A stretch of DNA of 55,875 nucleotides from Gracilinanus agilis (taxonomy: Eukaryota), in contig NC_058135.1 of assembly GCF_016433145.1 (NCBI RefSeq), forward strand, positions 221,446,734-221,502,608, in the 5' to 3' direction. The notes beneath the pieces are model-generated. The model searched no databases. It had not been told where the DNA came from and saw only the letters and a list, made by a program, of their open reading frames with translations. Of the stretch, positions 10,233 through 54,800 are shown one piece after another. The number at the start of each line of letters is the position of its first letter. Position 1 is the stretch's first letter. A program made the translations under genes and the position numbers.

Positions 10233-11565
10233 TGTAGTCCCTACCCCAATATCAAAGTCAACCAATTGACATCAATCAATTAGCTTTTACAAAAGGATAT
10301 TTACTGAGAAGTCCTAGGAAGAAGTTATAAAAACGTGGCCCCAAATGGGGTGGGGGCCTCCTCCTCTCCCCACATAGTTCACTGGGCAAGAGGGCTCAAA
10401 AGTTTGTGTCATTGAAAAGGAAAGGTGACCCAGGACAATTCTGAGGGGCTTATGAGAAAGAACACTACCCACATTCAGAGGAAGAACTGTGGGAGTGGAA
10501 ATACAGAAGAAAAACAACTGCTTGAACTCATTGGTTGATGGGACATGACTGGGGATGTAGACTCGAAACTACCACACCAAAGCAACTATCAACAATTTGG
10601 AAATAGGTCTTGATCGCTGGCACATGTTAAAACCTGTGGAAATGTGCGTTGGCTGGGGGGGGGGGGGGGAAGAGGAGGTCAAGGGAGGAAGGGGAAAGTA
10701 AGAACATGAATCATGTAACCATGATAACTTTTCTAAAAAATAAAAATTATTAAATAAAAAAAATTGCTGTTAAAAAAAAATAAAAGGAAAGGTGATGGGT
10801 GAGGGATACATGAAACCTAGAAGTGACCTCATTACTCCTGCCTCTAAGATTTATCTTCTGCCTTCAGAGCTTCTCCATCAATTTTCCTTCTGAGTAGGGT
10901 GTCTTGATCAATGAGCTGCTCCCTTCTTTCACTAGGCTGGCTCCTTCCCAGGCACAACTTCCCAAATGATGGCTCCATGCCCTACTGGGCTGACTCAAGG
11001 AGGTCCCTCCACTGCTGGGCTGGTTCAAGGTAGTCCTTCCGCTGCTGGGTTGAACTGAGTCAAGGGGGTCTCTCCGCTGCTGGGCTGGCTCCTCGCCTAC
11101 CGGGATGCTGCTGCTGCCAACTCCAGTGGTCTCTGAGAGCTTCGGGATAGCTGGTGGCCCTTCTGACCATCTCCAATTCAATTCCGTCTTCAAATACTCC
11201 TTAAGCGAAGATCAGAAACACAAAACTCCACCTCCGTCTCCTCCGTAGGCTCAGATCAGGGAAGAATAGACAGAAAGGAGAGAGAGAGGCACCATCTCTT
11301 CCGAGGTAACGTGGGGGCGGTTAGACGGGGGCAGACGCGCCCCCTTAGGGAGCCCAGAGCCGTCGTCCTTGCTTCAAAGCTTCCAGGGAAGGCGGCCACC
11401 TCTCTCTGCTCAAACCTCTCTCTGCATGCTCCGCTCCGTTTCTGCTTCGCTTCCCCCGCTCCTCCGTGTCGTCCCAGTCCCGATGGTCTCACTGTCTCTC
11501 CGGGTATGAGACTGGAACGGCAGAGAATATTGGGGGTCCTCTGAAGGTGGGCGACCTGCTTAGCA
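10233..11565 (-). mobile_element. Probable LTR-like element (CpG-rich, internal 30-bp tandem repeat) interrupted by an L1 3' end
   Basis: TG...CA ends, mirrored ccccaatat / atattgggg near both ends, 30-bp repeats at 10985-11092. No clean TSD, so boundaries and strand are tentative. Confidence 0.4.
10429..10781 (+). mobile_element. 5'-truncated L1 (Monodelphis-type 3' UTR)
   Basis: 14-bp TSD aaaaggaaaggtga at 10415-10428 and 10782-10795, G-rich 3' UTR tract and A-tail. Homologous to the minus-strand copy at 12.7-13.5 kb. Confidence 0.9.
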
Positions 11566-12060: not shown

Positions 12061-12094
12061 TTCAGCAAGAGCTCCGACCTGGCAGTCAAGAGAT

Positions 12095-12312
12095 CCCGGG
12101 TTCTAGACCCTCATTCGGCTAACTAAACTCACTGTGCAACCTCGAGCAAATTCCTTTCTCTTTTCATTTCGGTTTCTTCTTTTTATAATAAAAGTAGTAG
12201 ACTAGTGGCTCTCTCATGCCCCTCCCAGCTCTGACATTCTCTGTCCCGAGATTCCTTCCAGTTCAGACGAGTTCTGCTCTGTTCTAAGGTCCTTTCCAGT
12301 TCTAAAATTGTA
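12095..12312 (+). mobile_element. MIR3-like SINE with about 3 tandem copies of its 3' tail
   Basis: MIR core followed by cccctcccagctctgacattct / ttccttccagttcag / ggtcctttccagttctaaaatt. Confidence 0.65.
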
Positions 12313-12660
12313 GACCTGGATCCAGACCCTACTGGTTGGTGCAGAGATCACATACTGCTTTCACTTGCCTAATAGAAACCACTTGAGGCTTATCTTAGTG
12401 TTGGGGATTTTGTACAGCACCCACTCCTCCCTCCCTCCACTGCGGCCGATAATAAAGAGCGGAGTGTGCCGAACCCAATCATACCCCCCTCGCCCCCCAC
12501 CAAGGCCACTCCTCAGAGGAACGCTTGGGCGACTGGTAAGGGCATCTTATAGTTACAGCCACATAGATTCCACATAGGAGGGGAAAGACCTTTTCTTTAG
12601 TAAAAATCCTCCATTCAAATCTGATCTCTCCTTCATATTATCTGTGTGACCTTGGAAACG

Positions 12661-34990: not shown

Positions 34991-37619
34991 GCCAGCTTCT
35001 CTCATTTCCCTTCTTTCACTTTGTTTTCCCTTTAATTGTCCTACTTCATTGTTATTCAGGAAAAACTTGAGAGTGCAAGTCCTGATTGGAGCGCACTGCT
35101 TGCTTTGTGATCTTGGCCAGGTCCCATTTCCCCCTCTGTACTTAGGTTCCCACCTCTGATACTGGCCTGGGTTCCCTCTCAAAGTCCTGCAAACTGGAAG
35201 ATGTGGGTCTGCATCCCACTAAATCGGTCCAATTCCACCCTAATAGTGCCTCCATCACAGGGGTGTTGTGTAAAGAGCTTAGCAGACCTTGAAGCTATCT
35301 AAATGATGGTGATTATTTTCATCCATAAGCCATCAGTCTCTTGTATTTCCTACATACTGATGCCTGCTCCCCCCTCCATCCCCCCCCAACCCCCCAGCTT
35401 TAAGACACAAGCCAAGCAATATCTGTTTTCTGGGTCCTGATGTTAGCCATCTTGTGAAATCACTTACCATTTGCACTCCTTTTTAGTAATTAACCTTTTC
35501 CATCCTCACTTCCCCCTGTCCCCTCCCCTCTCCCCCCTCTCCCCCTGCCCTGCACCATCTCCTGTGTTGGGAGTTCAATCTTTTTCATTATTGTATCCAC
35601 TCACCTGACTGCTGGGCTGAGCCACAGGCAAGGCTAAAGTCCAGGACAGAGTGGTATAGCTGGAAGTGTCCCTAGAAGAGAGATTTTCAGAGCTGTAATG
35701 CATGATTACCAGACTATCTCCCCACCAAAGGTGTGATAAAATGCCAGATTCCAAGTACTACCAATAGCCTCAACTATCTCTTAGCATACCTTCCAACTTG
35801 TACTCTATCAATCTCATTTTTCTTATACATAGATCTGGTCATTAACTACTCTACTCAAAAACCCACAGTGGCTCACAGTTGCCTGCTGAGTCATGTTCAA
35901 ATTCCTTTGCCTGGCATTCGTGGCCCTGTACAACTGGCCTCAAGTCTACATTGCTGGCTTTACCTCATACTTCTCCCTAATAGCTTCACTATTTCATTCC
36001 CTACAGTGACTATTCCAGACCTCCTCTCTTCTTGTGTACCCACTGCCTTCCCTTCTCTGCTGAAGATCTCACCTCTTACCTAACTTGCTGGAAAAAATGA
36101 GGCCATTCATCAAGTGCCCATCTTCTCCTCTCCTTGGACATCTTCCCCCTCTGTCTCTTTATTCATTGAGGTCTCAGATGAAGAGGTGGTTCTTTTTCTT
36201 GCCATGGCAGGCCTTTGTACCCTTGATCCCATTCTGTTCTCCAGGTATTATTATCTGAACTCTAGTTACCTGCTCCTTCCCTAGCTAAAAAAATTATTGT
36301 GTCCCATGTTCTTAAAAAAAAAAAAGTATTCTTTGATCCTACCATCTACTAGCTATCATCCTATACCTTTCATCCCCTTGCTGGCTAAATTCCTTGAGAA
36401 AGCCACTTCAGTTAGCCATTCCCCTTTCTGTCATCTGACTCAATTCTAAGTCCAGTACTGCTGCCCCAAGGTTCAAGGACCCAGGTTAATTCTATGTCTG
36501 AGCTCATTCTCCCCGGAATGGGATAGGGAGAGTGTTTCCCCAAGATGTTGGGGAGAAATGTTTGTACTTTTTCCCTCCCTTGCTGTGTCCTCAAAATAAA
36601 TCTTTTACAAAAAGCTGGCTGATAGCAACTGGTTTAATGGAACTGGAAGCACCAGTCACTGGTGTCTAATGAGGGTAAGGTGGAAAAAAACAAGCCAATA
36701 ACATTAGAGAAAAGACAACCCACTAGCCCTCGAACCCTGAAAAGGAGATGTAGAAGCCTGGCTCTGAGATAGTGCAGGGGGGAGTACTACTTACCTTTTC
36801 TTTACAAATGTCTAAATCCTTGTCTCCCCCTCTACATATTCTATGATCCAGCTCCTCTGGTCTACTTACTCTTCTTCCTTCCCTTATGATGCTCCATCAT
36901 CTCACCTTTGAATCTTTGGGATGGCTGTCCTCATGCCAGAGACATCTGTTTGGTCTCGTCTCTTCATTTTGAGTTTTCCAGGCGTTTTTTAAAGATTCAG
37001 TTCAAATCCCAGCTGCTATGGAGGCCTTTCCCAGGCTTCTTTGCTGCTAGGGCCTTCCCCTTCCAGATTTCCTTGCTCTACTCTATGAAAAGACCTGGTT
37101 ATTTCTCTGTTGTCTCCTCCCTTAGGATGGCAGCCCTTTGAGGGGAAGGAATGTTTTTCACTTTCACTTAGCACAGTGCCTGACACTTCTCCATGATATG
37201 TCCTCAATACCCTGGAATAATCACAGACCCTCTGAGTCAGAAGAGATCTCAGAAGGCAACTCGTCCAACTTGTGCCTGAAGGAGACTCCTCCCCACAAGA
37301 ATCCTACCCACAAGTCTTTATCTAATTTTCTCAGAGACTTCTCTAGGAGAGCGCTCAGCAGCTCCAGATGAATGCAGGCCATGCTCCTGAGGTTTCTCCT
37401 TACATGGAGCTTAAATCTGACTACAACTTCTCACTCACTTCTAGTTCTGCCCCCTGAGGCCAAGCAGAACTAATGTCCTTCCCTTATAACAGCCCTTTTA
37501 GTCCTTTTAGACAGCCATAATGTCTTCCTTTCCCTCTTCAACTGCTAAATATTTACCCAGCCTTAAAAACCCTACTTGATGCCACCTCCTCGAAAAAGCT
37601 TCCCTTACTCCCTCTAGTT

Positions 37620-40781: not shown

Positions 40782-41544
40782 TGCAAAGCATTCCAATTGA
40801 TCTTTGCTAGATGACAAGCCTGGTCTGGATGCGTGATATGTGTAAGCATATTGCAGAATCACAAAATGTCTGACGGAGATCTCAGACACTATCTTGCCCA
40901 GCCCTTTCATTAAAAAGGCCCTGAGAGGGGTCGGAACTTGCCCAAGGTCACATTGTAAGTTAATTAGTGGCGAAATTGGATCTTAAATCTAGATTTGTTT
41001 TGATTTGTTTTTTAAAGCTTTTGGCTTCAAATCAGGACTTTTCCCACAGGCCTCTTATCCTGCAAGAGACCCATTTTTAAGCCACTAAACCATTGGGCTG
41101 AGGCACATGTGTGTTAACGGAACCGTGGCCCAGTTGTGGTGGTAAAAAAGAAAACAGAGTTGCTACATTAAATCCCAGGAAAAGTCACTGCTGCTTTCCC
41201 CACCGTCAGCCACAATTAGCTCTAGTCTTGGTTTAGAAGCCGTTCCACCAAGTGCCAAAGACTGTTGATTCCCCCTCTTAGATGAGAGTCAGTGGGTGCC
41301 ACAGAATTAGTATGGGGGGCCTGTGACTGATTTGTGGACAGAAACTCAGCACTTGTGAATGTAGGTAAGAATCAACATTTTATATGATTGTTATTATTAC
41401 AAAGGGAAAAGATCAGGCTGTCTTATTGTTTCTAAAGCTTTAAAAAAGCATCTATCTGAAAACACCCCGTGAGGTAAGTAGGGCATTTATTATTGTTCTT
41501 ACTTTATAAATGAAGAAACTAACATTTAAAGAAATTTAAGTAGA

Positions 41545-42650
41545 ACGTGGAACATATGACCTATCAGATTTATGGATGGGGAAGAATGTATGAAAAATGA
41601 AGAGACAGAGAGCACTGTGAGATATAAAATGGATAATTTTGATTACATTAAATAAAAAAGTTTTGTACAAACAAAACCAATGCAACCAAGATTAGAAGGA
41701 AGCAGAAAATTAGAGGGGCAGATTTTATAGTTTCTTGGATAAAGGCTTCATGTCTCAAACATATAGCTAAGTCAAATTTATAAAAATATGAGTCATTCCT
41801 CAACTGATAAATGGTCAAAGAATATGAACAGGCAGTTTTGGGAAGAAAAAATCAAAATTCTTTATAGTCATAGGGGAAAAAATGCTCTAAAACATTATTT
41901 ATTCAAGAAATGCAAATTAAAATAACTCTGCCATCTCGAACCTATCAGATTGGTTAAAATGACAGAAAGGAAAAATGACAAATGTTGCAGGGAATGTGGG
42001 AAAATTGGGGCCCCGATACACTGTTGGTGAACTGTGAACTGATCTAACCATTTTAGAAAGCAACCTGGAATTATGCCCAAAGAGTTACAATACTGTGTAT
42101 ACTCTTTGTCCCAGCAATACCACTATTAGGTCTGTTTCCCAAGATGATCTGAGATTAAAAAAAAAAAAGGAAAAGAACCTGTATGCTCCAAAACATTTAT
42201 AGCAGTTCTCTCTAGAAATTGAGGAGATGCCCATCAATTGGGAAATGGCTGAATAAATTGTCGTATAAGATTGTGATGGCATACTACTGTGCTGTCAGAA
42301 AGGCCAAGGAGGTTGGTTTTAGGAAAAAATGGAAAGATTTGCATGAAATAATGCAGAATGAAACGAGCAGAACCAAGAGCATGTCGAATAGACTAACAGC
42401 TGCATTATTTGAAGAGTAACTGTGAATGACTAAGCTATTCTCAGTAATATGAACATTCAAATCAACCACGAAGGACTTTATGAAGGAAGCTGCTCTCCAT
42501 CTCCAGGGAAAGAATTGATAAATGGAAGTATGTATTTTCTGGTTCCATATAAATATCTTTATCAAATGTTGGCTTTCTCTAATGTAGGGTTGGGAGGGAA
42601 AGTGGGAGACAATTCAGAACTCAAAATGTATAAATAAATATTTTTTAAAA
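41545..42650 (+). mobile_element. L1 ORF2 C-terminus and 3' UTR
   Basis: aagaaatgcaaattaaaataactctg, ggtgaactgtgaactgatctaaccattttagaaagc, AATAAA tail. Confidence 0.88.
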
Positions 42651-43881
42651 AGAGATTTCAGTGATTTCTCACGGCTAGTACTCTAAGTGTCAGAGCCGAG
42701 ATTCAAAGACAAATTTCTTTGGATCCTATTCCAAAGTTCTTTTTATTACCACTGTGCCAATACAAAAAGGTATTAGATGTGTCATGTCTACAGCTTAATT
42801 CTACAAATTAATTGTGGGAGGTTGTGAGACATGACAGGCCCCATTTGGGTAAACAATCAGTCATGTTCCTTTATACAGAGCTTCAGCCTAGAGAGTTTGG
42901 CTTTCTCTCGTTAATGGTTGCCATAACCCTGGAAAGCAGCTGGAAGTCTCACAGGCTTGTTCTTGTTGTACAGATGTAGTCACTGATTACCTTTTGGGAG
43001 AAAAACAAGGTGAGCTGTAGAAAGCTCAGGATTCTACTCAGTCCATCAGGTTGCACCATCTCTTTCATATTCACTGCCAGTCCAAATCTTCTCAATACTT
43101 CAAGGTCCGGGACAAGACTTGTCTCCCTGACTGCTCCAGACTACATAGATGTCCCTGTTTTCCAAACTGTTAGACATTTTTCTAGTTTGTGCCCTAGAAC
43201 CTTATATGTGATTAAATGAGCATAAATATTTCCACACAGAGCTTGCAGGGAGAAATCTTAGTCATCAAATCTTGAGTCACCAAATTTGTCACACAATCTC
43301 ATATTCTGAGTCACAGACTCTTAAAATCATGAAATCCATTGAATCTTGTGGAGCCCCAGGAGCTTGGAATCATGGAAGGTTGCCAGTAGGAGCCGACCCT
43401 GGAGTTGCTCAGTTAGTATCTGTATTTTTTTTTTCGTCACATTGTTTCTCTATTCTAAATGTGTATGTCTTGTCTCCCTAATCAGATTGGATGAATTCTA
43501 AATCAGAACCCAGGTAGTCCTCCTTTTCTTTTTCTCTTTCCCTCAGAAGAACCAAACCTAAGACTGGGCACACCAGTAGTCTCAGGGAACTGCAACTTAG
43601 GATGTAGCAGAATTCTTTCTTCCAAAGCAGAGAGATCACTGTGAGTCAGGGGAATGCATATAGGATTTGGAGTCAGAGGACCTGGCTGAATCTGGCCTTT
43701 GCCACTTACTACCTGTAGGGCATGGCTGAGAAATAACAACTAGATCGTTTCTCAAAGGGTTCCTTCCAGTTCCAAAAATGTGATCTTAAGATTTCTAAGT
43801 TTCTCTTCTAGAGTCACATGAGTGTTGAATCAGGAACAGAGGAAATCCCAAGGAGAGTATCAAGGGACAGGTTGTAATGTG

Positions 43882-43919
<38 letters not shown>

Positions 43920-44249
43920 GCTCATTTTTTTCATGGCTGAAAACTCTACTCTCTGCTTTTAGGGATTGTAATAAATTGCTTATGCTACAGCAAAGGCTCA
44001 AAGTCTCTCAGAGATAATAACATTTTATATCTATATAAGCTAGAAAGCTTGCCCAGAGGGTTCACATATGCTTGATCTTAGTTCTGGTTAGGAGCCTCCA
44101 TTAAGGCCTAGCTGCTCTGTCACTAACTACCTATATGATGAGTCATATAAACTGAGTCTCAATTTCCCATTTGTCAAGGAAGAGGTTAAGTTCAGTAAAC
44201 TCTAAGGTACCTCCAAATGTGAATAGTCTCGTATAGTTTTTACATTCCA

Positions 44250-45875
44250 TGTTCTAAGATCCCTGACAACCCTGACATTCTAAGGTATCCATGACATCTT
44301 TGACATTCGATGCTCCATGGTCCTTGACAGCTCTAATATCCTATGATCTAGGTTCTATGGTCCTTGACAGCTCTAACATTCTATGATCTAGGTTCAATGG
44401 TCCCTGACAGCTCTGACATTCTGTGATCTAAGTTCTATGGTCTCTGACAGTTCTGACATTCTGTGATCTAGGTTCTATGGTCCCTGACAGCTCTGACATT
44501 CTATACTCCATGGTCTCTGACAGCTCTGACATTCTATGATCTTGGTTCTAAGGTCTCTGATAGCTCTGACATTCTATGATCTTGGTTCTAAGGTCTCTGA
44601 TAGCTCTGACATTCTATGATCCATGTTCTATAGTCTCTAACAGCTCTGACATTCTATGCTCCATAGTCCCTGACAGCTCTGACATTCTATGATGTAAGTT
44701 CTATGGTCTCTGACAACTCTGACATTCCATGATCTAGGTTCTAGGGTCTCTGACAGCTCTAATATTCTATCATCTAGGTTCTAGGGTCTCTGGCAGCTCT
44801 GACATTCTGTGACCTAGGTTCTATGGTCCCTGACAGCTCTGACATTCTATGATCTTGGTTCTATGGTCTCTGACAGCTCTGACATTCTGTGATCTAGGTT
44901 CTATGGTCTCTGACAGCTCTGACATTCTATGATCTAGGTTCTATGGTCCCTGACAACTCTGACATTCCATGATCTAAGTTCTATGGTTTCTGACAGCGCT
45001 GACATTCTGTGATCTAGGTTCTATAGTCTCTGACAGCTCTGACATTCTATGATGTAAGTTCTATGGTCCCTGACAGCTCTGACATTCCATGATCTAGGTT
45101 CTAGGGTCCCTGACAGCTCTGACATTCTAGGATCTTGGTTCTATGGTCCCTGACAGCTCTGTCATTCTATGATCTATGTTTTATGGTCTCTGACAGCTCT
45201 GACATTCCATGATCTAGGTTCCAGGGTCCCTGACAGCTCTGACATTCCATGATCTAGGTTCTAGGGTCTTTGACAGCTCTGACATTCCATTATCTAGGTT
45301 CCAGGGTCCCTGACAGCTCTGTCATTCTGTGATCTATGTTCTATGGTCTCTGACAGCTCTGATACTCTATGCTCTATGGTCCCTAACAGCTCTGACATTC
45401 TATGATCTATGTTCTAGGGTCTCTGACAGCTCTGACATTCTATGATCTAGGTTCTATGGTCCATGACAGCTCTGACATTCTATGATCTAGGTTCTGTGGT
45501 CCCTGATAGCTCTGACATTCTATGATCTAAGTTCTATGGTCTCTGACAGCTCTGATATTCTATGATCTAGGTTCTAGGGTCTCTGAAAACTCTGACATTC
45601 TATGCTCCATAGTCCCTGACAGCTCTGACATTCTATGATCTAGGTTCTAGGGTCTCTGACAGTTCTGACATTATATGATCTAGGTTCTATGGTCCTTGAC
45701 AGCTCTGACATTCTATGATCTAGGTTCTATGGTCCTTGACAGCTCTGACATTCTATGATCTAGGTTCTAGGGTCTCTGACAGCTCTGATATTCTATAGTT
45801 TATTTTTCATGGTCCCTGATAGCTCTAATATTTTATTTTCCATGATCCCTAATAGCTCTGACCTGCTCTATTCCA
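44250..45875 (+). repeat. Minisatellite of about 40 units; 40-bp unit GGTCYCTGACAGCTCTGACATTCTRTGATCTAGGTTCTAT with 33-bp variants
   Basis: Period 40 directly visible (e.g. 44401/44441/44481). Degenerate units at both edges; preceded by a MIR core at about 44110-44215. Confidence 0.97.
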
Positions 45876-46139
45876 TTTAAGGTCTCTTCCAGCTTGGTAA
45901 ATCAATTTTACATTAGACCTCCATAAACAGCTGAGGCCCAGGCCCCTTGCCATCCAACAATCCAATCCAAACCCTTGTCAATAGGCCAGTTAACCATGGA
46001 ACCCAGTCCAGGTCCAGAGCCACTCTCTCTCTTTCCTCCCATCTCAATCCATAGCTGAGATAATTCAACAGCTGAGCTGGTGTCTTGAGTAATTATTGCT
46101 GCTTGGAAGGGTGTGACAATATACTCTTCCATCTCCTTT

Positions 46140-54580: not shown

Positions 54581-54800
54581 TAGGGACCCTTAGAACACAG
54601 AATGTTAGAGTTCTAAGTGACCTCAGAACCCAGAATAGAGAATGACAGAGCTGAAAATGGCCTTAGAACAGAGAACTGTAGAACTGGAGGAGGCTTTTAG
54701 AACACAGAATGTTAGAGCTGCAGAAAATGGCAGCCCTGGGAGGGACCTTAGAGACTATGTGGTCTTCCCCTGGCTGGACAGAGAGGAAAAGAGGCATTGA
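54581..54800 (-). mobile_element. MIR3-like SINE with tandemly iterated 3' tail
   Basis: On the minus strand: ctctaaggtccctcccag followed by about 4 degenerate (ctctaacattctgtgttctaagg)-type units. Confidence 0.65.

What the first reader, a model, noticed from the sequence alone, without database searches (positions are those of the whole stretch)
44250..45875. 1.6-kb minisatellite built from the CR1/L3-type 3' terminus of a MIR3-like SINE
Seen: about 40 tandem 40-bp units directly after a MIR core, each containing GGTCCC...ATTCT(A/G)TGAT. Interspersed variants recur: an identical 43-bp short-unit block at 44651 and 45597, and gatgtaagtt at 44691 and 45051. Known: CR1/L3 LINEs and their MIR3-type SINEs end in GGTCCCTTCCA...ATTCTRTG repeats, the region the RT recognises. 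Inference: the SINE tail itself was amplified about 40-fold, by repeated template re-priming during TPRT or by later unequal exchange, creating a VNTR of retrotransposon recognition signals.
Basis: partly seen in the sequence, partly recalled or inferred. Interest (0 to 1): 0.7.

Follow-up and report, generated by a model that had tools for sequence, protein, structure and literature searches.

The report
SINE-tail minisatellites that swap units
The 1.6-kb repeat is real and is made of the tail end of an old jumping element; it is an odd, locally grown member of a family of hundreds of such tail arrays that crowd into two chromosome blocks of this likely marsupial genome and likely swap units with each other, a process known from reptiles, with no function shown.

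Summary
Confirmed: 34 units of 40 bp and 5 of 33 bp (44319-45843) follow a worn MIR3/Ther-2-type SINE on the same strand. The unit aligns to the tail that this SINE shares with a CR1/L3-type LINE. The array is not unique: a 35-base junction of a related 33-bp unit has 1,366 exact matches (control 0), crowded into C3:46-70 Mb and C1:713-734 Mb. A SINE body abuts 26 of 59 and 18 of 49 arrays (mirror controls 2 and 2). Array centres at different loci are 85-88% identical to one family majority, edges and SINE bodies 75%, and one variant differs between the blocks (p 6e-6), which points to unit exchange between loci. The window array lies outside both blocks and carries private changes in nearly every unit, so it grew locally after insertion; re-priming during retrotransposition does not explain it. 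The unit lacks the 5' arm of the predicted tail hairpin, so it is no ladder of whole recognition signals. Closest known: reptile SINE-derived satellites. I found no marsupial report; Dfam and Repbase could not be checked. Length polymorphism and expression are untested.

The parts
44114..44215 (+). 5'-truncated, worn CORE-SINE of the MIR3/Ther-2 type (name from literature pairing and recall); its own tail is the start of the array
   Evidence: nhmmer E 3.6e-8, model columns 57-171; 75 of 102 aligned bases match the family majority
44216..44318 (+). worn 5' edge units (28-33 bp spacing)
   Evidence: (period-28 row 44252-44319)
44319..45810 (+). main minisatellite: 34 units of 40 bp and 4 of 33 bp; private TGAC change and private 7-bp insert
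   Evidence: uniqueness in the genome:
45811..45900 (+). worn 3' edge: a 33-bp unit, a 37-bp unit and a last part-unit at 45881 that keeps the ancestral TTCCAG
43649..43791 (+). separate single-tail copy of the same SINE type, 320 bp upstream, no array
   Evidence: nhmmer E 1.3e-10
12067..12315 (+). second, small family-type tail array (3 units from about 12211) behind a SINE body
   Evidence: (row 56)
54590..54755 (-). third, worn family-type tail array (4 scored units); no SINE body scored upstream
   Evidence: (row 58)

Best explanation
The array is a minisatellite made of the last 33-40 bases of an old MIR3/Ther-2-type SINE, and it likely grew by DNA-level copying long after the SINE inserted. 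Steps: (1, shown) the SINE and a CR1/L3-type LINE share this tail, and arrays of it sit behind SINE bodies at many loci. (2, inferred) A first duplication formed between the short direct repeats TCTA(A/T)G at the two ends of the unit, giving the 33-bp unit. (3, inferred from the layering) New units were added in the middle, so edges are worn and centres young. (4, inferred) In two chromosome blocks the arrays exchange units with other loci, most likely by ectopic gene conversion during break repair, and so keep one shared sequence with block-specific variants. (5, shown pattern, inferred cause) The window array lies outside these blocks, fixed private changes (TGAC, a 7-bp insert) and spread them through itself by patchy copying within the array. 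It is likely neutral.
For: Tail origin: local score 48 against the SINE tail, highest of 5,000 shuffles 38; 37 copies of a non-CORE element share the tail, their majority reads as an ORF end, and a profile of 5 natural fragments finds 456 proteins at E<=0.001, best 6.6e-18; 8 of 10 looked up are bird proteins, one named reverse transcriptase. Adjacency: 26 of 59 arrays, mirror control 2 of 59, random positions 43 of 600; second set 18 of 49, mirror 2 of 49. Local growth here: G and A of the TGAC change in 33 of 34 40-mers each; 34-mer 4 hits, all in this array; insert pattern 10 of 11 hits here; TGAC pattern 12 of 13 here. Patchy copying: identity flat across lags, variant patches recurring 360 and 946 bp apart. 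Exchange between loci: identity to the family majority rises from 0.75 at edges to 0.88 inside, and from 0.73 in short to 0.85 in long arrays; array-linked SINE bodies are as worn as single ones (0.75 and 0.75); 19 of 30 long arrays hold a unit identical to the majority at 28 of 33 columns; column 11 is T in 26 of 29 C3 arrays and 6 of 22 C1 arrays (p 6e-6), permutation p<2e-4; flanks are not shared beyond a younger dispersed repeat.
Against: No exchange event was seen directly; one assembly only. The family majority, the scoring matrix and many arrays came from pattern hits, which favours likeness to the majority (the 18 arrays from blind samples show the same trend, but only 6 are long). More than half of the arrays (33 of 59, 31 of 49) have no SINE body that scores upstream. 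The second half of the unit fits the LINE-type tail without a gap (score 48 against 42 for the SINE tail), and 0 of 98 single SINE tails carry it (4-6 of 158), so the seed was a minor tail type that I did not isolate. The window holds 3 arrays in 56 kb though it lies outside both blocks, and worn arrays occur on C5, C2 and distal C1, so the two-block picture is not strict.
Confidence: 0.7

Rival explanations
1. Reverse transcriptase re-primed on the SINE tail many times during insertion and wrote the whole array at once.
For: Arrays begin in register at SINE tails. In the 33-bp family, identity within and between arrays is nearly the same (0.785 and 0.792), as one master would give. Slippage on 3' repeats is reported for UnaL2 (PMC3747384, passages).
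Against: Same-age units should be as worn as the SINE body; centres are 0.85-0.88, bodies 0.75. The window array shares private changes across nearly all units. Retrotransposition would not confine arrays to two blocks or give block-specific variants. It may still have made the first dimer.
Confidence: 0.06
2. No exchange between loci: each array grows alone, and centres converge on one sequence because that sequence expands best or is bound by a protein (for example a break-inducing factor).
For: Central units are near-identical at 28 columns across two chromosomes; several differences from the LINE or SINE tail are changes to G or C.
Against: Block-specific variants fit exchange among neighbours better. 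The window array reached about 39 units with a different sequence. No binding or break data.
Confidence: 0.1
3. Units move between loci through an RNA or a DNA circle that is inserted into matching old tails, not by direct conversion.
For: Gives the same young centres and shared sequence. The units keep half of a LINE recognition region.
Against: The unit lacks the 5' hairpin arm and array RNA folds worse than shuffles (z +1.9 to +2.8). The L3-like copies seen are worn fragments. A diffusible intermediate does not explain confinement to blocks.
Confidence: 0.08
4. The shared young centres are an assembly artefact: gaps in arrays were filled with majority-type reads from other loci.
For: The assembly has many N gaps, some inside or beside arrays; no long reads were seen.
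Against: The gradient is gradual over five positions, variants are block-specific, and the window array has private units with no exact repeat over 60 bp.
Confidence: 0.06

Closest known systems
SINE-derived satellites (sSat1-3) of scaled reptiles, Vassetzky et al. 2023, PMC10702118 (read: parts 1-4 of 5 of the text; supplements not seen)
   Same: Tandem copies of part of a SINE with a longer terminal unit that runs on into the SINE; up to thousands of loci; units more alike than the SINE copies (89% against 64% in cobra), within and between loci; likeness rises with array length; locus-specific subvariants; uneven chromosomal spread; gecko sSat3Gja1 includes the 3' part.
   Different: [quoted passage not shown]
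Mammalian SINE-derived minisatellites: Alu-derived human minisatellites, mouse B1-derived (GGCAGA)n family, Haber and Louis short-direct-repeat model (seen only as passages of the reviews PMC6947457 and PMC9659126)
   Same: Minisatellites seeded inside SINEs, first duplication between short direct repeats, later growth by slippage, conversion or unequal exchange.
   Different: Seeded by an ancient CORE-SINE tail; the passages read describe no sharing of one unit sequence between loci or confinement to blocks.
MIR3/Ther-2 CORE-SINE and its partner L3 (PMC3747384 table 1, passages; PMC3403934, passages); CR1 3' hairpin and ATTCTRTG octamer (PMC8665684, PMC4316615, passages)
   Same: CORE body followed by a tail shared with a CR1-type LINE that ends in ATTCTRTG repeats.
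   Different: Normal copies carry one tail; here part of the tail is repeated, without the 5' hairpin arm.

Membership tests
MIR3/Ther-2 SINE (element at 44114-44215) | CORE domain | tested here: met
   Matches a model built from CORE-box copies of this genome; the label CORE for that box is recalled.
MIR3/Ther-2 SINE (element at 44114-44215) | 3' tail shared with an L3/CR1 LINE | tested here: met
   37 copies of a non-CORE element share the tail and end in ATTCTRTG repeats; protein hits are mostly bird fragments, one named reverse transcriptase. No hit is named CR1; that step rests on CR1 being the bird LINE (PMC5753468, passages) and on recall.
MIR3/Ther-2 SINE (element at 44114-44215) | tRNA-derived head | tested here: inconclusive
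   This copy matches only from model column 57.
MIR3/Ther-2 SINE (element at 44114-44215) | Match to the Dfam or Repbase consensus and subfamily (MIR3, MIR3_MarsA, MIR3_MarsB) | not testable with these tools
   No such library is on hand.
SINE-derived satellite (sSat) | Tandem units from part of a SINE, with a terminal unit that continues into the SINE | tested here: met
SINE-derived satellite (sSat) | Many loci, units alike within and between loci, more so in long arrays | tested here: met
   The window array itself departs from the family (0.81).
SINE-derived satellite (sSat) | Subtelomeric position | tested here: inconclusive
   Blocks lie 46-70 Mb from one end of C3 (684 Mb) and 67-88 Mb from one end of C1 (801 Mb); the window lies 78 Mb from the end of C6; scaffold order could not be checked.
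SINE-derived satellite (sSat) | Unit of 70-290 nt (observed range, not a definition) | tested here: not met
   33 and 40 bp.
VNTR | Copy number varies between individuals | not testable with these tools
   Only short contigs of one study are held.
Tail written by TPRT re-priming | Units as old as the element, without shared locus-private changes | tested here: not met
Array of CR1-type RT recognition signals | Hairpin plus octamer in each unit | tested here: not met
   Octamer present; 5' arm absent; array folds worse than shuffles. The hairpin of the SINE majority is itself weakly supported here (z 0.34; no consensus fold of 98 copies).

The most novel reading that the evidence does not exclude
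The 33-bp unit is a selfish, self-spreading sequence: it attracts germline breaks or wins their repair, overwrites the tails of long-dead SINEs and drives thousands of dispersed arrays in two chromosome blocks to one sequence, which would mark those blocks as domains of ectopic recombination in a marsupial; the window array is an escapee that evolved alone.
Probability: 0.15. Interest if true: 0.75.

Novelty: new member of a known kind. Interest (0 to 1): 0.42.

Why it matters
The single array matters little. The family would be a mammalian case of SINE-derived satellites, which the reptile paper left open, and a ready test bed for concerted evolution between dispersed loci: every array has an old, dateable SINE beside it, young centres, worn edges and block-specific variants, and isolated arrays such as this one serve as controls. 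The blocks may also mark regions of high germline break or conversion activity, and the arrays may be usable as polymorphic markers.

Tried and rejected
Block-specific variant at unit column 31 (first guessed): rejected, both blocks are mostly C there. A dispersed family of the 40-bp unit: rejected; the one outside insert hit (L155) is not an array. Higher-order periodicity in the window array: none. Segmental duplication or a larger mobile unit carrying the arrays: flanks share only a younger dispersed repeat in both orientations. LINE body as array seed: no same-strand upstream hit among 108 arrays. GC content alone: 1 array in 112 kb of outside samples with GC>=0.42 and 23 SINE tails. Junction with the ancestral TTCC and RTG letters: 0 exact hits. 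Gene context: 300 of 629 window frames of 40 aa or more scanned, none reached a Pfam cut-off; 142 of 3,850 frames from the blocks and window flanks gave only L1-type and ribosomal-protein pieces, so the blocks stay unidentified. Single-fragment homology search and Pfam for the LINE end found nothing. Link to Rsx repeats: PMC6633197 (passages) printed no monomer sequence in the passages read; untested. Expression: no RNA holder listed. Gilbert and Labuda 1999 is not held. Look-ups of earlier findings by place and by sequence were empty.

Full report
Observation. The array is real. TRF gives period 40, 37.7 copies, 85% matches at 44317-45796. Splitting it gives 34 units of 40 bp and 5 of 33 bp from 44319 to 45843, worn units at both edges, and 87% mean pairwise identity among the 40-mers. 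Exact GGTCCC occurs 12 times, so it is not in every unit. The longest exact internal repeat is 60 bp.

Setting. The window is C6:221.45-221.50 Mb of a 3.7-Gb genome with contigs of 801, 684 and 299 Mb, with N gaps on both sides. Three tail types follow the CORE box. I infer a marsupial from this; the family names are recalled or taken from PMC3747384 and PMC3403934 (passages). None of 300 of the window's 629 longer reading frames reached a Pfam cut-off, so the array looks intergenic or deep intronic.

Origin of the unit. With no repeat library on hand I built the SINE from 98 single-tail copies in blind samples. It matches window 44114-44215 on the array's strand (E 3.6e-8), 75 of 102 bases. 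A window unit aligns to its last 41 bases with score 48; the best of 5,000 shuffles scores 38. A second, non-CORE element with the same tail has 37 copies in the fetched DNA; its majority reads as an ORF end followed by the tail and ATTCTRTG repeats. A profile of five natural fragments finds 456 proteins at E<=0.001; of 10 looked up, 8 are stork proteins, one named reverse transcriptase, 1 is a frog protein and 1 is unnamed. CR1 is the hallmark LINE of birds (PMC5753468, passages), ATTCTRTG is its octamer (PMC8665684, passages), and MIR3/Ther-2 is listed with an L3 tail. So the upstream element is MIR3/Ther-2-type. Against a simple story: the second half of the unit fits the LINE-type tail without a gap and the common SINE tail only with a 2-base gap; 0 of 98 single SINE tails carry it, 4-6 of 158 in a wider set. 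The seed was a minor tail type.

Not a ladder of whole signals. The SINE majority is predicted to fold a hairpin over columns 138-177; the unit starts at column 156 and lacks the 5' arm. That hairpin is weak in my data (z 0.34; no consensus fold). Array 80-mers fold worse than shuffles (z +1.9 to +2.8).

A genome-wide family. All 9 other loci fetched with the SINE-array boundary hold related tandem units, mostly at 33-bp spacing. A 35-base junction pattern has 1,366 exact matches, reversed control 0; the 100 listed fall in 56 arrays, which scales to roughly 765. A narrower pattern lists all 31 hits: 24 in C3:46-70 Mb, 3 in C1:729-733 Mb, 1 on C6, 3 on small contigs. In 100 samples of 10 kb at round coordinates or beside the window, the two blocks hold 17 arrays in 224 kb and the rest 3 in 633 kb (p 6e-8); per SINE tail 17 of 60 against 3 of 99; all 6 arrays of 8 or more units are in the blocks. 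Extrapolated, the blocks hold about 3,000 arrays, with wide limits. GC-rich samples outside hold 1 array in 112 kb. The blocks were drawn from the pattern hits, and worn arrays occur elsewhere, two more in this window.

Link to SINE bodies. A same-strand body runs into the 5' end of 26 of 59 arrays; mirror control 2 of 59, random positions 43 of 600 (arrays near locus ends or N gaps were dropped first). In three 200-kb stretches chosen at hit-rich places: 18 of 49 testable arrays (of 55), mirror 2. The body model also scores other CORE-SINEs. No LINE body stood upstream of any of these 108 arrays.

Signs of exchange between loci. Identity to the family majority rises from 0.75 at the edge to 0.85-0.88 inside, and from 0.73 in short to 0.82-0.85 in long arrays. 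SINE bodies at arrays are as worn as single copies (0.75, n 19 and 98). 19 of 30 long arrays hold a unit identical to the majority outside five variable columns. Flanks are not shared. Isolated arrays should drift apart at the rate of their SINE bodies (inference), so something keeps the centres alike. Column 11 is T in 26 of 29 C3 arrays and 6 of 22 C1 arrays (p 6e-6); young units differ at 2.9 of 33 places within an array, 3.2 within a chromosome and 3.5 between chromosomes (58 arrays, permutation p<2e-4). This fits exchange among neighbours, likely ectopic gene conversion; no event was seen, the scoring matrix favours majority-like units, and there are no long reads.

The window array. It is 0.81 identical to the family, at most 0.88. 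Its TGAC change is in 33 of 34 40-mers and its 7-bp insert in 34 of 39 units; both are almost private to this locus. The last part-unit keeps the ancestral TTCCAG and the edge units are 33 bp or shorter, so a 33-bp array came first and the 40-bp variant spread in the middle (inference). Identity is flat across lags while variant patches recur 360 and 946 bp apart, as patchy copying within the array would give. Growth therefore came after insertion; TPRT could at most have made the first dimer. The TCTA(A/T)G repeats at both ends of the unit offer a DNA-level seed of the Haber and Louis type (PMC6947457, passages).

Known kin and novelty. Reptile sSats share most of these traits, and their authors had not checked mammals (PMC10702118, parts 1-4 of 5). 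Alu- and B1-derived minisatellites are known. Didelphis satellites have monomers of 206-4,290 bp (PMC8056902, passages); passages of PMC3403934 and PMC4408412 mention no tail array. Searches listed no report of this repeat, judged from titles and abstract starts; most subscription papers, all supplements, Dfam and Repbase were not seen and may hold it. Earlier AI notes report like cases in other animal genomes; they are unchecked, and they suggest that the process is common. Verdict: real, correctly traced to the SINE tail, ordinary in mechanism at this locus, and part of a family that deserves a genome-wide look. Interest 0.42.

Noticed in passing
G000 C3:46-70 Mb and C1:713-734 Mb: Two blocks hold nearly all well-kept 33-bp tail arrays; GC content does not explain it and their gene content was not identified.
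   Followed up: partly
G000 C3:59118602-59119065 (-): At least 14 exact pattern matches in a row at 33-bp spacing: a very young expansion or an assembly fill.
   Followed up: no
L021, second array from about 2567 on the - strand: Another tail array with its own drifted unit, like the window array, inside the C1 block.
   Followed up: no
window 37212-37273 (-): 3' end of the L3/CR1-like LINE.
   Followed up: partly
window 41500-42430: High-copy repeat fragment, read depth up to about 670,000 in X1; looks like L1 (recalled).
   Followed up: no
window 10985-11091: Worn 30-bp tandem repeat, 3.4 copies, containing a GGTCCC motif; relation to the tail not tested.
   Followed up: no
L109-L111 (C6 on both sides of the window): The window is bounded by N gaps of about 15 and 20 kb, so its placement on C6 rests on scaffolding.
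   Followed up: no
L136:8062-8276 (C3:10 Mb): 42-bp-period repeat that looks like C2H2 zinc-finger coding sequence (label recalled).
   Followed up: no
P0052, P0148: Database proteins in which a LINE ORF end appears fused to an SNF transporter or TPD52 sequence, likely gene-model errors.
   Followed up: no
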